A stretch of 64,000 nucleotides of DNA, from assembly GCA_965637545.1 (NCBI GenBank), contig OZ281494.1, positions 2,108,001 to 2,172,000 on the forward strand, written 5' to 3'. The first letter of the stretch is position 1. Every line of letters begins with the position of its first letter. The stretch comes from Phallusia mammillata. Taxonomy: Eukaryota. Shown here piece after piece: positions 51,001-60,000 of this stretch. The position numbers are program-made.

Positions 51001-54000
51001 CTGAACAAATGATTATCATAATTTTAAGAAATTCTGCTTTGAAATGCATTTTCTCATAGTAATATTGGTTTTACACAACAACAAACAATCTTTAACCTAC
51101 ACTAAACGATTTAAATTGGATATCTGACGAAACAAATGGTATAATTAATGAGGACAAATCTGACAATGAAACGGACAAGTCGTAATAGCACTCCAGGTTC
51201 ACCGCACTTTAGCTGAAAATTAATGTAATAAAATTGAATCAAGGTGGCTGGTTACCATATGAGTCACAAACAAGTTGGCCCGCTTATTTGGGGCAGTTGG
51301 CAAACTCATGACAATAGGTGCAATAAATCACATTTATCGTTGTTATCCACGGCTCGAATTTATCGTTGTTATTCACGTGAGATTTGGCTGTTAACTATAG
51401 AGGGAAGTTGCAAAACAAATCCGCCCGAATGGAAAGTAAAGCGGGCGGTTTTGTACAGCTCGTTTTATAATAAATACTTTTGTATGTTTTGCAGGTTAGT
51501 AATTGTTTTGTTTTTGTCCAGATGAACTTTGTCAACACGTATCCAATTTGTGATCTGTCTGTTTTCCATTATTGCTAGTGACAAGAAAGAAATCTGCACT
51601 TAAATTTGATTCTTAACAGTAAAATTTTCCACAAAGTTAATCCGCCGTCATTAACAAGTTTAAAGTAGCCCTTTTTTTAAAAAATTTCCATGATAGTTGC
51701 AGTAAAGTTGATGTTGGTGGCCTTGGTTTGCAAGTCATGGTCAATAATTATATAAATGCACTGCAGCATTGAAAGTCTCCTTTTTTAAATATACTTGAGG
51801 TGCTCATATTAAACGCTCGTCATTGGCCAGTCGCCCGCGTCGTGATCCTAAGGAGGAATTTTCCCTCAACTGAGTTCTTCGAGTAAATACATTTATTCTT
51901 TACAAACACCGTTAGAATTGTAAAAGTTTAGAACGTAGTAATAAAGTTTTAATACTTGAAATATTTGCAGTCTTGATTCCTGGTTTAGGAAAGCACCAAC
52001 TAAACCGATTTATCGAAACAAAATAGCAGCGTCTTGCCTGGAAATATGGCAATAAATGATCTGAACAGACATGTCTCAAATCACAATCTAACCAGGAGTC
52101 AATTTTATGCCTGATTTAATTGACGTTTGGGAGCCCATTAAGTTAGATGTGTAAATTAACAAAACGGTATACTACATTTACAAAAAAATTTGCTGATCTC
52201 TTTAAAACGTCCAAATTGCAGACATAGAGTGAGTATTGACGTCAAAAGCTCCATAAAAAGTCGTCAGCAGTTTTAAATTCGGTGCTCATGTTTGATATTT
52301 GGCTGCAAAAATTTACCCCGTAAAACTCTTTACAACTTGGTGTGGGGTTATAAAAGCATGAAGCGTCTTGCGGTTTAGCAGAAGCGTTTACTGCAGCCAT
52401 TGTGTAAGACGTTTGTTCACATATATTTTGTTATTTATCGAAAATTTGTGCTTGCAGTCTTGTGTTTTTGAACACTGTTACTTCCTTCTGTAGGGAAAGT
52501 ATGCATCCAAAATTTGCTGTAGCAAAGGTTATTGTCCTAGGGTTAAAGACCGCCACCAAGTGACGGTTTCTCTTTTCGATGAAAATGTGATAAAATGGGC
52601 AATTTCAACAATAGTTTGGTTTTTGTATTAGATTACCATCTAAAGGAGTTTCAATGCAGTGGGTATTAAATTTTGAGTAGCATTAACACCTCAATGATGC
52701 TGTTGTTACTGTGTCACGAACTGTCTATATTACTCACACTAACAACATAAACATTTCGGCGCACAAATTCTGCTATTGTTTTAACTTTTTGTGAAACATT
52801 GTTAGTGTATATTTGAAGGCCTGAGCATCACTAAATTGATGAACAGATTTCAGTGTATAGAGTTCTTATGTTTTAAACCTGTATTTATTTACAGGATGAA
52901 GTGGAAGGAATGAGTGTTGAAACTGCTACAGCCATCGCAGAGTTTGATTTCTTGAACCCAGATGCTGAAGAACCAGGTCAGTTTGTTAGAAAAACAATAG
53001 ACACAAGTCAAAAAGTCAAAATCAACATGAACTATAGCCTTGATGCTAAGCCAGTGGTTCTCAAACTTTTTTGAGCGTGACCCAAATCTGAGTTTCATAA
53101 ACACCTCACGAACCAAGCCTCAAACAACAAAAAATGTATTTTATTTCCTTGTACGAATACTTACTCATACTCTAACGCTAACTGTCACATGGCCAAGTTC
53201 AGTTAACGCAAGATTCCTATTATTTCCCGTGCTATGACGTTACAATCGCCATGTGCGACACATTATAGTGGGAAGGCTGTTGTGTGCGCGACCCATTTTT
53301 TTACCCTGTGCGACCCATGTTTGGGTCGCAACCCATACTTTGAGAACCACTGTGCTAAGCCATATACTAAAATTATGGTTTCTTATGAGGATGTCAATTG
53401 ATTCTATCAGTTTCTTCCCCTTTGCCTAACTTAATTTGTTTGACACACAATAAAAGTAGGTAAAGCTTGCTTTTGTGGTTGTCAATTTTTTCACTCCACA
53501 ATACAAACTGTTGGTAACCTTCACTTTACAGACGATACTAAAGCCACAGATTGGACGATTGACCCAAACAAACTGAACGCAATGAAACAACAATTCCTAC
53601 TTGAGAAAAAGCAACAGAAAAAGAAAGGAATGAAAAGTAAGACAACATTTTTGTCCCTAAATTTGGTGATTTTTGGACCTAAAAAAACTGCATTAAACAT
53701 TAATTATTGAACAAATTTGGAAAAATATGGTTAATAGACCATTGCACTAATATACTGAACATGCAACTAGTGTGTTGTCTGTTTCTTAAAACGTTTCTTT
53801 TTGAGCTCCCATGAAGCAATAGCTTTTCTGTCAAACACCACAAGATATGTTTTTCTGTGTAGCCTTTTTTTGACTAAACTTCCCAATCTCATAGGACCAG
53901 CAAAGAAACATTTGCAAGACATGCTTCAGACATTTCAAGGAGCCGAGATGCAAAAAGCAAACGACGACATTGATATCCATATACCCGAGGAAGGTTAGTT

Positions 54001-57000: not shown

Positions 57001-60000
57001 TGCCACAAATAAAAATATCGTTTTTATTCTGCAAATTGGAAAAAGCGAAAGTTTTATCGGGTTTTATGGAATTGCTTGTCATGGTTACAAAAGAGGTCAA
57101 CACGCAAATTATCCTTCGGAGCAAATTCTTTTAATATCATCCTTGTTCCTACCATTGTTGATTGAACCTTCGTACTGGCCGATGTATTTGAAATACTTAC
57201 AAATGTAGGCCTACTGCATGAATGGATTAAAAGCCATGGACGATAAAATCCTTGGTAAAACAGAATCGGTCGGTTTTGTTTTACCAAGGATTTTATCGTC
57301 CATTGGTTTTACTCTACTCTAGTTAAAAAGGCAAACAGTGATCGTCAGGTTAAGCCATGCTGTTGATGGTTTTGGACCAATTACTAAAGCTGATATTTTG
57401 ATTACTGCATGAATACAACTACTGTAATCTCTATTCAAACACAGATTCATGAAAAAAATGCTATTGAAACTTCAACTTAGTTAACATTGACTGACCAAAC
57501 TGTGAAATTACATTGTTAGCCTTGCACAATTATCCCACCACACATCTTATGTACGAAATTGCCCCGAGCTGAATAATTGATGTTTTTCTGCAGGACCTTC
57601 AACGCCCACTTGTGTTGAGTTTGTACAATGTGATTCCAACTACGCGGTGGTGTCCCATACCGACGGAAAAGTTGTCTTGTATGATCTCGAAACAGGGAAA
57701 ACACCTGTTATTCTCTCTGAAAACGACACAGGTAAAATCGATTCAAAATCTGCTGCGTCGTTTAACTCTAAATATTTGTGCTTTTGTTCCACAGTATTGA
57801 CATGAATTGATTGCATTGATTCTGTTTAGAATACTTCCTAGTTTACGGATTTTTTGCATAATTACTCTTTGATTATCGATATGCATTATAATTCTTTTGT
57901 TTTTAATGCGATGCGTTACTGTTTAATTTTGAAATGGTGACAAATATGCATTGGTTACTAAATTCGGCTCGTTGAATATAAACTAAATTACAACTTTGCA
58001 GAATTTATTTTGTTTGGAGATTTGGCAGCAAATTAACCTAAATGCATCACGTGACAAATATTTTAATCTCAGGTCGAGTAAATGCAGTCGCAACTCACCC
58101 GACCATGCCTATCACCATGACCGCACACGACGATCGTCACATCAAGTTCTTTGACAATTCCTCAGGTAAAACTGCTGGTCGGGTTACCTCGTCTAATGTT
58201 GATTACAACGGTCGTAGGTTCACTTAGAGCTTGTGTGTATGTACAGACACATAAAAATATATGCTACACATAAACTGATGTGTGACCATAGCGTGCATTC
58301 AAAGTTGCTCATATTAGTCTTACAAATTCGCATGTTAATTGTTGTCAACTAATGTTAGCTATTTCTTATAGTCATATTACGTTGTTTCGGGTTCATATGT
58401 TGAACTGTTTCATTCTAGGAAAGTTGATCCATTCTATGGTTGCCCACCTTGATTCGGTGACGAGTCTCTCCGTTGATCCAAACGGTCTCTACCTTCTTTC
58501 AGGAAGTAAGTACACGAAAACGGAAAATAACTCTTTTACAGAAAAACGTCAACATCTTTACTAGACTCGCTCTTGACACACGTTTAGTTTACGAAAAACC
58601 TGAAGTTACTCGATTTAATTAACGTTTTTGAATTGAAAATATATGTGGCCCCTTTACAGAAAAAAATACCAAAATTTGCGCTATATTAGCACTGCATATA
58701 GCGTTTAGTGTACAAATGAGGTAACGTGAAGTAATTTTAATTTATAAATTTAATAATTTATTTTAATTCCTAAATCCACCACCGACCGTCCAATCTCCAC
58801 TTGCAGGTCATGACTCCTCGATTCGACTGTGGAATCTCGACAGCAAAACTTGCATACAAGAGTTGACGTCACACCGCAAGAAGTTCGACGAATCAATTTA
58901 CTCCGTTGCTTTTCATCCGAGCGCAACTTACATCGCAAGTGCGGGAGCCGACGCCCTCGCTAAGGTCTTCGTGTGAACGCGTCACAATACGCCGCGTGTG
59001 TGACATCATAGTCCACTTGTGACGTCATAGTCCACTTGTAATAGGCTATTTGTGACGTCACGATACCGTAAAGTGACGTAGAAACCCTGCGACACGTCTG
59101 ACGTCATAGGATATTGCTCTTATGACGTCATAGGCCAGCCTTGTGACGACATCGTGCAGTTGCTTACTCCATTTTAGTGGTCTTGTTGATTCCAGTTAAC
59201 GTCACTGCCCAATCAAGTGCTTTTGGTCCGTCGTTTATGACGCAATAGAGACCAGCTCTGTGACGTCATTTATAGCTGTTGTTTCGTGTCGCATGCCTCG
59301 ATGACGCGTAACTTTGAAAAGAATAATATGTTGTAAGCTTGATTATTTATCGCGCTTCGTACGGTCGCCGCTTTTGTTACGTCATAATGCGTTGTGTACA
59401 AATGCTCGTTCGCGTTGCTCAAGTATTTTCTCGTCGCGCTTGATTCGGTTTGGTCACGTGGTTTCGTACCTCTGCCTTCGCCCAACGAAATCTAAAGTTC
59501 AATCTCTATTGGACACATTTCTTTGAAAGTCCAAAAAACTGCGCCTCTAGTGGTTACATTTATATTCGTACGACACCGTCAGAGGGCGCTGCAGGGTTCG
59601 GTGCTTTTCTGGTGCAAAGTTTCATTCTGCATCTCATCACTTCATCATTTAGGTTTCCTCCAGGGCTGCTTTGACCCGAAACACTTCTTATCCTACTTGG
59701 TGATCTTCACACCGATTCGTGCGATTCCCGTTTTAATTCAGCACATGTACTCAAGTTGCTTCCGCACCAATCAGTGTCAATTTGCCCTGTTTTTCTGTGT
59801 TTTCCATTTGTAGAAAATAGTTACTCGCTGAAACGAGCGGTTCTCGTAGCTGATTGGCTGTATCAGTCACGTGGAAAACCGGCTGTGTTGTTTCATTTTA
59901 GCAAACCGGTCCAGTTTATATTGTAAGATGTAGAATCTATCAAAACCCGGCAAAGCTCATTGCTTTTCAGTTTCTTTGAGCGATAAATATCCTCAATACA

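What the first reader, a model, noticed from the sequence alone, without database searches (positions are those of the whole stretch)
52724..58976. Headless striatin copy showing strong purifying selection
Seen: over 1407 coding nt there are about 47 silent and only 3 replacement differences (D/E, T/A, H/Y), no indels and all splice sites intact, while introns carry many indels and copy-specific transposons; the coiled-coil and CaM-binding exons are missing. A copy dead since duplication would have accumulated dozens of replacements. Inference: (a) two very divergent alleles joined by mis-assembly, (b) recent unequal crossover between divergent haplotypes, or (c) a functional WD40-only striatin lacking the PP2A-binding/oligomerisation N-terminus. 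(a) or (b) is most parsimonious and predicts aGPCR, LDLa-GPCR and a complete pentraxin again downstream of the window.
Basis: partly seen in the sequence, partly recalled or inferred. Interest (0 to 1): 0.68.

Follow-up and report, generated by a model that had tools for sequence, protein, structure and literature searches.

The report
Headless second copy of striatin
A second, promoter-less copy of the last eleven exons of the striatin gene lies 46 kb downstream of the complete gene and differs from it almost only at silent sites, so it is either the other haplotype's version placed in tandem or, less likely, a working propeller-only striatin.

Summary
Copy 2 (52726-62795, + strand) repeats exons 7-17 of the striatin gene at 211-11982. 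Over 1404 coding nt there are 50 differences: 47 silent and 3 replacements (D/E, T/A, H/Y). There are no indels, all 21 splice dinucleotides per copy are intact, and both copies end in TGA. NG86 gives dS 0.169, dN 0.0028, omega 0.017. Introns differ at 13% with 59 indels. Random placement of 50 changes never gave 3 or fewer replacements (0 of 20000, mean 36.8). "Dead since the split" is therefore rejected, and copy 2 can have drifted for at most about 9-12% of its own branch.

Exons 1-6 leave no trace elsewhere in the window. The window cannot tell diverged haplotypes brought together recently (by assembly or by real exchange) from an old, functional WD40-only paralogue. My weights are 0.5 and 0.3.

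Several signs count against a simple assembly artefact:
- There is no N gap and no repeat at the junction.
- Homology stops 1.2 kb before the window ends.
- Undoubted tandem paralogues between the copies have the same dS (0.15-0.21).

Organism, read depth and transcripts stayed unchecked.

The parts
6254..15507 (+). Duplicated block, copy 1: the 3' end of intron 6, exons 7-17 and about 3.5 kb downstream of the complete striatin gene
   Evidence: Self-BLAST, pair alignment, ends of homology.
211..5567 (+). Striatin exons upstream of the duplicated block, present in copy 1 only. They lie in the open frames 211-501, 2193-2327, 2343-2495, 3104-3241, 4416-4604 and 5253-5567. The ATG exon was not seen in the window.
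   Evidence: Pfam Striatin PF08232 scores 54.6 bits (cut-off 29.4) for 2196-2327 and 25.6 bits (below cut-off) for 286-399. The four other pieces gave 0 families and were assigned by eye only.
6395..11982 (+). Copy 1 exons 7-17: 6395-6476, 6712-6816, 7090-7188, 7609-7730, 8111-8334, 9092-9213, 9574-9738, 10515-10652, 10996-11088, 11465-11551, 11813-11982 (TGA included)
52726..62795 (+). Duplicated block, copy 2 (the headless copy plus its downstream flank)
52726..52894 (+). Left junction and retained 3' end of intron 6. Nineteen shared bases are followed by 27 extra bases found only in copy 2, then a 120-nt stretch before the acceptor with 2 mismatches in 119 aligned nt.
   Evidence: Nothing upstream of 52726 matches copy 1.
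52895..52976 (+). Exon 7' (82 nt, phase 0 at its start). It has an in-frame ATG at codon 6 and carries the D/E replacement.
   Evidence: No Pfam family.
53054..53352 (.). MITE-like insertion found only in copy 2, in intron 7'-8'
   Evidence: Perfect 14-nt inverted ends and a 10-nt flanking direct repeat. Absent from copy 1.
53532..53636 (+). Exon 8' (linker)
   Evidence: 6 silent, 0 replacement differences.
53895..53993 (+). Exon 9' (linker), carrying the T/A replacement
54528..54649 (+). Exon 10' (linker)
   Evidence: 4 silent, 0 replacement differences. No PDB match at E up to 0.01.
55016..55239 (+). Exon 11' (start of the WD40 propeller)
   Evidence: WD40 at 33.7 bits. One stretch matches Striatin-3 7k36_B residues 376-448, E 4.6e-37.
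56000..56121 (+). Exon 12'
   Evidence: WD40 at 22.6 bits, below the cut-off. Boundaries.
56474..56638 (+). Exon 13'
   Evidence: WD40 at 37.5 bits.
57594..57731 (+). Exon 14', carrying the H/Y replacement. Y in copy 2 is the derived state against human Striatin-3.
   Evidence: Striatin-3 residues 549-588, E 3.4e-6. The printed alignment shows H in the human chain.
58073..58165 (+). Exon 15'
   Evidence: Weak WD40 match, E 0.08. Boundaries.
58419..58505 (+). Exon 16'
   Evidence: WD40 at 22.9 bits, below the cut-off. Boundaries.
58807..58976 (+). Exon 17' with the TGA stop
   Evidence: WD40 at 35.5 bits. 10 silent, 0 replacement differences.
58977..60230 (+). 3' flank (probable 3' UTR), only about 2.5% diverged from copy 1 positions 11983-13200
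   Evidence: 30 mismatches in 1218 aligned nt. Profile in 100-column steps, and no AATAAA or ATTAAA in either copy.
49312..50966 (+). Upstream neighbour on the same strand: a pentraxin gene that looks 3'-truncated. It has an ATG with a signal-peptide-like start. Pentaxin profile positions 3-134 of 194 are present, then the frame runs into a 148-nt repeat.
   Evidence: No Pentaxin match in 9 + strand frames between 51005 and 52631. The repeat is at 50819-50966.

Best explanation
Copy 2 is a 5'-truncated duplicate of striatin exons 7-17. It holds 468 codons (about 136 residues of linker plus the whole WD40 propeller), the stop codon and the 3' flank. Its left breakpoint lies about 170 bp upstream of exon 7, in intron 6.

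I think the silent-only divergence most likely did not arise in a headless gene. The two sequences diverged as versions of the one full-length striatin gene, in two very different haplotypes of a highly polymorphic species or in an introgressed lineage. Both were then held by ordinary striatin constraint. They came to lie in tandem only recently, either through a real non-homologous tandem duplication or exchange that involved the homologue (about 0.3), or through a gap-less haplotype join by the assembler (about 0.2). On this reading copy 2 has no function of its own and is too young as a fragment to have decayed.

Shown: the duplicate, its breakpoint, the intact frame and splice sites, omega 0.017, and the limit on any neutral phase. 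Inferred: that the divergence predates the juxtaposition.
For: - Omega is 0.017, with 47 silent and 3 replacement differences.
- 0 of 20000 randomisations gave 3 or fewer replacements.
- Any neutral phase of copy 2 is limited to at most 9-12% of its branch.
- The linker exons 7-10 are not detectably conserved with human Striatin-3 (E10 has no PDB match; E7-E10 have no Pfam family). Yet they show 17 silent against 2 replacement differences. That is expected if both copies served as the same full-length protein.
- The acceptor of exon 7' and the 120 nt before it are kept (2 mismatches in 119 nt). A first exon would not need them.
- The 3' flank is kept at 2.5%.
- Intron divergence varies from 6% to 25% along the gene, as recombining alleles would give.
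- Heterotype false duplications are reported to arise where haplotypes are most divergent (PMC9516828, abstract and passages).
Against: - Divergence is extreme for alleles: 25 of 220 4-fold sites, 13% in introns with 59 indels, and 75-81% identity in the downstream spacer.
- There is no N anywhere in the window.
- There is no repeat at the junction that could mislead an assembler or guide homologous exchange. An end-joining or template-switch duplication would more often copy the same chromosome, giving initially identical copies.
- Homology stops at 62795, and the last 1205 nt do not match the sequence after copy 1.
- Undoubted tandem paralogues between the copies have the same dS: LDLa-GPCR L3 against L1/L2 at 0.15-0.16, and one aGPCR frame pair at 0.21. 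So a real duplication of that age fits the locus.
Confidence: 0.5

Rival explanations
1. An old, real partial duplicate kept by selection: a WD40-only striatin. It would be made from exon 7' onwards, with the first in-frame ATG at codon 6 of exon 7'. Possible sources of the transcript are a new or internal promoter, an exapted upstream exon, or (if the organism uses it) a spliced leader added at the retained exon-7' acceptor. Lacking the coiled coil, it could bind the propeller's partners without joining the PP2A scaffold, acting as a decoy or an independent adaptor.
For: - If all 3 replacements fell on copy 2, the upper bound on its branch omega is 0.086-0.118.
- No frame, splice or stop lesion.
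- The 3' flank and the acceptor flank are conserved.
- The junction lacks homology and lacks a gap.
- dS equals that of real neighbouring paralogues.
- The block may end at 62795.
- 5'-truncated paralogues can be expressed from internal or exapted promoters or as fusions (PMC6169893, passages).
- The coiled coil is the part that mediates oligomerisation and assembly, while the WD40 domains meet other regulators (PMC8226480, passages).
Against: - No promoter, first exon or transcript is shown.
- A new truncated gene would be expected to relax or change, yet only 3 conservative replacements are seen, 2 of them in the linker, and the linker is as constrained as the propeller.
- Functional retention of a headless copy at such low omega is rare a priori (my own judgement).
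- Of three searches that included striatin, the listings and the passages I read showed no N-terminally truncated striatin. The truncated forms reported lack the WD40 part instead.
Confidence: 0.3
2. A chimeric gene. The 3'-truncated pentraxin just upstream on the same strand supplies the promoter, the ATG and the signal peptide, and splices into exon 7'.
For: - The pentraxin has an ATG at 49312 and Pentaxin profile positions 3-134 of 194 only.
- No C-terminal part was found between 51005 and 52631.
- Its exon ending at 50037 has a phase-0 donor, and GT dinucleotides in phase 0 follow the last Pentaxin-like residues near 50787 and 50793. Exon 7' starts in phase 0, so an in-frame fusion is possible on paper.
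Against: - This is pure frame arithmetic with no transcript.
- Two thirds of a pentraxin fold fused to a cytosolic propeller behind a signal peptide is an unlikely working protein.
- It would not explain the tight constraint on the striatin linker.
- The pentraxin exon model itself is rough; the exon 1 to exon 2 phases were not resolved.
Confidence: 0.05
3. An unexpressed fragment that has decayed neutrally since it was copied (an ordinary unprocessed pseudogene), or one kept similar to copy 1 by gene conversion.
For: It lacks exons 1-6 and the ancestral promoter. This is the usual fate of partial duplicates.
Against: - 66-90 replacements and about 11 exon indels are expected on a neutral branch; 3 and 0 are seen.
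- 17333 of 20000 random sets of 50 changes contained a stop codon.
- Gene conversion would erase silent differences too, yet 4-fold sites are as diverged (11.4%) as introns (13.1%).
Confidence: 0.02

Closest known systems
Full-length striatin (PP2A B''' subunit; human Striatin-3, PDB 7k36 chain B)
   Same: Exon 11' matches Striatin-3 residues 376-448 in one stretch (E 4.6e-37). Exon 14' matches residues 549-588. WD40 repeats reach Pfam's cut-off in 3 of the 11 exons and give weaker hits in 3 more.
   Different: Copy 2 lacks the Striatin N-terminal domain (caveolin-binding and coiled-coil parts) and the calmodulin-binding exons that copy 1 has. Identity to the human chain is 20 of 40 residues in the printed exon-14 alignment, so this is a distant animal orthologue, not human sequence.
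Known truncated striatins: the 35-kDa SG2NA variant and the Candida albicans striatin-like gene
   Same: Natural striatin forms that carry only part of the domain set (PMC4105797 passages; PMC8226480 passage).
   Different: Those keep the N-terminal part and lack the WD40 repeats. Copy 2 is the mirror image, with linker plus propeller only.
5'-truncated segmental-duplication paralogues (CHRFAM7A, FRMPD2B, GTF2IP1, ROCK1P1 and HYDIN2 as named in PMC6169893)
   Same: The upstream exons and the ancestral promoter are lost in a partial duplication. Expression, if any, needs an internal or exapted promoter or a fusion with an upstream gene (passages).
   Different: No transcript is known here. The divergence (dS 0.17) with omega 0.017 is a far stronger constraint signal than a young duplicate can show.
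Heterotype (haplotypic) false duplication in assemblies
   Same: Two diverged versions of one locus on one sequence, with coding parts nearly identical in protein. These arise where haplotypes are most divergent (PMC9516828).
   Different: Of the four hallmarks listed there, the only one testable here (a gap between the pair) is not met. The junction also shows no shared repeat.

Membership tests
Striatin family (PP2A B''' regulatory subunit) | N-terminal Striatin domain (caveolin-binding motif and coiled coil; Pfam PF08232) | tested here: not met
   Copy 1 has it (54.6 bits for 2196-2327). For copy 2, homology starts at 52726 and no trace of exons 1-6 exists in 13000-64000 (best tblastn E 0.098).
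Striatin family (PP2A B''' regulatory subunit) | Calmodulin-binding region between the coiled coil and the linker | tested here: not met
   The copy 1 frames 3104-3241 and 4416-4604 were assigned to this region by eye only (Pfam gave 0 families). They have no counterpart near copy 2.
Striatin family (PP2A B''' regulatory subunit) | C-terminal WD40 propeller of striatin type | tested here: met
   WD40 scores above cut-off in E11', E13' and E17', with weaker hits in E12', E15' and E16'. Single-stretch matches to Striatin-3 residues 376-448 and 549-588. Tested exon by exon only.
Striatin family (PP2A B''' regulatory subunit) | Oligomerises and binds the PP2A A/C subunits | not testable with these tools
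   This needs the coiled coil (PMC8226480 passage), which copy 2 lacks. No joined protein was folded or docked.
Decaying unprocessed pseudogene | Frame shifts, stops, broken splice sites, or omega near 1 | tested here: not met
   0 indels, 0 stops, 21 of 21 splice dinucleotides intact, omega 0.017. P of about 1e-24 or less under neutrality.
Heterotype false duplication (assembly artefact) | Assembly gap between the duplicated pair | tested here: not met
   No N in the 64000 bases. Criterion taken from PMC9516828.
Heterotype false duplication (assembly artefact) | Half read depth, 1-copy k-mers, discordant or non-spanning reads | not testable with these tools
Expressed 5'-truncated paralogue | Ancestral promoter and 5' exons lost while an open frame is kept | tested here: met
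Expressed 5'-truncated paralogue | Own transcription start (internal, exapted or fusion) and copy-specific transcripts | not testable with these tools
   No expression data. Only the phase compatibility with the upstream pentraxin exons was worked out.

The most novel reading that the evidence does not exclude
The headless copy is a real, long-lived gene for a propeller-only striatin (linker plus WD40, about 463 residues from the ATG in exon 7'). It has been held under constraint as tight as the parent's. It would be expressed from a new start (an internal or exapted promoter, the upstream pentraxin, or a spliced leader on the retained acceptor). It would act apart from the PP2A scaffold, for instance by competing for the partners of the striatin propeller. 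It would be the mirror image of the known N-terminal-only striatin forms.
Probability: 0.3. Interest if true: 0.7.

Novelty: new member of a known kind. Interest (0 to 1): 0.4.

Why it matters
If the copy is haplotype-derived, it is a warning case: a gap-less duplicate with perfect purifying-selection statistics that gene-family counts and selection scans would wrongly score as a conserved new gene. If it is real and old, it would be a natural separation of striatin's propeller from its PP2A-binding coiled coil. That would give a direct handle on what the WD40 domain does on its own in STRIPAK signalling, and it would be a rare example of a 5'-truncated duplicate under very strong constraint. 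The 50 fixed differences give ready copy-specific markers for reads and transcripts, so the question is cheap to settle.

Tried and rejected
- Residual homology upstream of copy 2 (blastn, word size 7, 1-6260 against 46300-52730) gave only a 158-nt inverted repeat, 5079-5235 against 50966-50819, and one 50-nt match at E 6e-6.
- tblastn of six N-terminal exon pieces, each on its own, against 13000-64000 gave nothing better than E 0.098.
- The search for the missing pentraxin C-terminus found no Pentaxin hit in 9 + strand frames between 51005 and 52631 at E up to 1. The frames 63195-63584 and 63734-64000 also gave none. Other short frames of 62700-64000 were read by eye only.
- Rfam over 52000-64000 gave 0 matches at gathering scores, so the conserved 3' flank is no known RNA family.
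- No AATAAA or ATTAAA occurs within 1.9 kb after either stop codon.
- Exon 10' has no PDB match at E up to 0.01.
- Two papers on the STRIPAK structure (PMC8315899, PMC8063606) are not held. I used a review's passages instead.
- Mosaic ancestry is not established. The 3' introns are half as diverged as the 5' introns, but 4-fold sites do not follow that pattern (8 of 88 against 17 of 132). Constraint or alignment quality may explain the introns.
- Gene conversion as the cause of similarity is rejected, because silent sites are as diverged as introns.
There is therefore no whole-propeller fold, and the structure and complex tools were not used.
- Not done: the large protein collections and the metagenome and viral contig sets were closed, and the genome set holds only bacteria and archaea. 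No orthologue, outgroup or organism could be found.
- Paper supplements were not consulted.
- The window is not taken for human: 20 of 40 residues are identical to human Striatin-3 in exon 14 and introns are a few hundred bases long.

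
Full report
**What is there.** The 64-kb window (37% G+C, no N) holds these features in order.
- A striatin gene lies on the + strand. Its exons are seen from 211 to the TGA at 11980-11982.
- Two tandem adhesion-GPCR units follow (GPS and 7tm_2 domains).
- Three tandem intron-less LDLa plus 7tm_1 receptor frames lie on the - strand.
- A pentraxin gene lies on the + strand.
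- A second copy of the 3' two thirds of striatin then follows on the + strand.

A self-BLAST and a pair alignment show the two striatin blocks to be collinear direct repeats, 6254-15507 and 52726-62795, with 46.5 kb from start to start.

**The exon model.** Eleven exon pairs (E7-E17) were placed from reading frames, AG/GT consensus and the pattern of conservation. The phases chain without a break, and only the 224-nt form of E11 keeps the frame.
- Single exons were checked against Pfam. WD40 scored above the cut-off in E11', E13' and E17'.
- E12', E15' and E16' gave weaker WD40 hits. E14' gave only weak propeller hits.
- The linker exons E7'-E10' gave nothing (10 exons, E16').
- Against the PDB, E11' matches human Striatin-3 (7k36_B) residues 376-448 in one stretch (E 4.6e-37).
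- E14' matches residues 549-588. E10' has no match.
- Copy 1 carries the Striatin N-terminal domain upstream of the block (54.6 bits).

The printed exon-14 alignment shows 20 of 40 residues identical to the human chain. Together with introns of a few hundred bases, this means the contig is not human.

**The observation.**
- There are 1404 coding nt plus a TGA in both copies, with equal exon lengths.
- There are 50 differences: 47 silent and 3 replacements (D/E in E7, T/A in E9, H/Y in E14) and 0 indels.
- Acceptors are intact in 11 of 11 and donors in 10 of 10, in both copies.
- The counts cover 459 whole codons. The 9 split codons carry no difference.
- NG86 gives pS 0.151, pN 0.0028, dS 0.169, dN 0.0028 and omega 0.017.
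- 4-fold sites differ at 25 of 220 (11.4%).
- The ten introns differ at 504 of 3859 aligned sites (13.1%), with 59 gap openings and 1138 gap columns.

Silent sites are therefore at the neutral level. One copy-2-specific insertion is a clear MITE-like element.

**More than chance.** I placed 50 changes at random in the copy 1 exons, using the intron substitution spectrum. This gave a mean of 36.8 replacements (minimum 24). 0 of 20000 runs had 3 or fewer, and 17333 contained a stop codon.

If copy 2 had been neutral since the split, 66-90 replacements and about 11 exon indels would be expected on its branch. Given 3 and 0, any neutral phase is limited to about 9-12% of that branch, and its omega to at most about 0.09-0.12. 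The one replacement I could polarise (H/Y) is derived in copy 2, because human Striatin-3 has H there.

**The ends of the block.** On the left, 19 shared bases at 6254/52726 are followed by 27 bases present only in copy 2. Near-identity follows up to exon 7, with 2 mismatches in 119 nt, the best-kept acceptor flank of the eleven. Upstream of 52726 nothing resembles copy 1, and no trace of exons 1-6 exists in 13000-64000. The copy is truly headless within the window, and the junction joins two unique sequences.

On the right, identity falls from about 97.5% in the 1.2 kb after the stop codon to 75-81% in patches, and ends at 15507/62795. The last 1205 nt of the window match nothing after copy 1. 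Yet the start of the aGPCR unit (15979 onwards, itself conserved between the two aGPCR units) would be due there if a 46.5-kb unit simply repeated.

**Reading it.** A fragment that has drifted since it was copied is excluded. Gene conversion is excluded too, since it would erase silent differences. Two readings remain.

(1) The divergence arose while both sequences were full-length striatin genes, in very different haplotypes, and they were put in tandem recently.

(2) The duplication is real and as old as the divergence, and the headless copy has been kept by selection (option c).

*Evidence for reading (1).*
- The fast-evolving linker exons are as constrained as the propeller (17 silent against 2 replacement differences).
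- An acceptor site that a first exon would not need is kept.
- Intron divergence is uneven (6-25%).
- False duplications arise where haplotypes are most divergent (PMC9516828, abstract and passages).

*Evidence against reading (1), and for reading (2).*
- There is no gap between the pair. A gap is one of the four hallmarks in that paper and the only one testable here.
- There is no repeat at the junction that could cause a false overlap or guide homologous exchange.
- Homology ends early on the right.
- Divergence is very high for alleles.
- Undoubted tandem paralogues lying between the two copies have the same age. LDLa-GPCR L3 against L1/L2 has dS 0.15-0.16 (omega 0.34-0.37). L1 against L2 has dS 0.045. 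The two aGPCR frame pairs have dS 0.21 and 0.03.

I weigh reading (1) at 0.5, split as about 0.2 assembly and 0.3 real recent event. I weigh reading (2) at 0.3. The reason is that functional retention of a promoter-less copy at omega below 0.1 is rare, while divergent haplotypes are common in polymorphic invertebrates. That last point is my own prior, not a result.

**How a working copy could be made (inferred only).** The first in-frame ATG is codon 6 of exon 7'. A transcript could start at an internal or exapted promoter, as described for human 5'-truncated paralogues (PMC6169893, passages). In a trans-splicing organism it could receive a spliced leader at the retained acceptor.

The upstream pentraxin on the same strand looks 3'-truncated. 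Pentaxin profile positions 3-134 of 194 are present, and the frame then runs into a repeat. It has phase-0 donors compatible with the phase-0 start of exon 7', so an in-frame chimera is possible on paper. I give that 0.05.

Striatins have a caveolin-binding, a coiled-coil, a calmodulin-binding and a WD40 domain. The coiled coil mediates oligomerisation and complex assembly, and the four WD40 domains of the complex meet other regulators (PMC8226480, passages). A propeller-only protein should therefore bind propeller partners outside the PP2A scaffold.

The truncated striatins I found in print lack the WD40 part instead: the 35-kDa SG2NA variant (PMC4105797, passages) and the C. albicans gene. 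Three searches included striatin. Their listings and the passages I read showed no N-terminally truncated form. That is not proof of absence.

**Verdict.** The inference of purifying selection is right.

Noticed in passing
28259-28694 (and 30143-30360): Two 100% identical 111-nt direct repeats (28259-28369 and 28584-28694) flank a 218-nt piece (28367-28584). That piece is 100% identical to part of the first LDLa-GPCR frame 1.6 kb away (30143-30360). It is either a very recent templated insertion or a local assembly error at the aGPCR / LDLa-GPCR boundary.
   Followed up: partly
29215-32115, 36187-39141, 43130-46081 (- strand): Three tandem, intron-less open frames of 966-984 residues (period about 6.96 kb). 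The first was checked and has LDL-receptor class A repeats (5 stretches) and a rhodopsin-type 7TM domain. Pairwise dS is 0.045 (L1-L2) and 0.15-0.16 (against L3), with omega 0.21-0.37.
   Followed up: partly
18641-22697 and 24351-28369 (+ strand): Two tandem adhesion-GPCR units (GPS and 7tm_2) at about 90% DNA identity. The GPS-containing frames have dS 0.21 and the 7TM frames dS 0.03, so the two halves of the unit differ sevenfold in silent divergence.
   Followed up: partly
49312-50966 (+ strand): The pentraxin gene has a signal-peptide-like start, but only Pentaxin profile positions 3-134 of 194 are present. Its frame runs into a 148-nt repeat (50819-50966) that is an inverted copy of 5079-5235 in striatin intron 5-6. 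No C-terminal part was found up to 52631.
   Followed up: partly
11983-13200 and 58977-60230: The 1.2 kb after both stop codons is only 2.5% diverged (30 of 1218). That is four to five times less than 4-fold sites or introns, and the switch falls at the stop codon. There is no AATAAA or ATTAAA and no Rfam family. It may be a strongly constrained 3' UTR or a younger tract.
   Followed up: partly
11119-11356, 21579-21877, 27234-27534, 58192-58311: A short tandem-repeat family of about 75-85% identity occurs in striatin intron 15-16 of both copies and near the 3' end of both aGPCR units.
   Followed up: no
1-501: The first visible striatin exon starts at an acceptor inside the frame 211-501. The ATG exon of the complete gene was not seen, so copy 1 may itself be cut by the window edge.
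   Followed up: no
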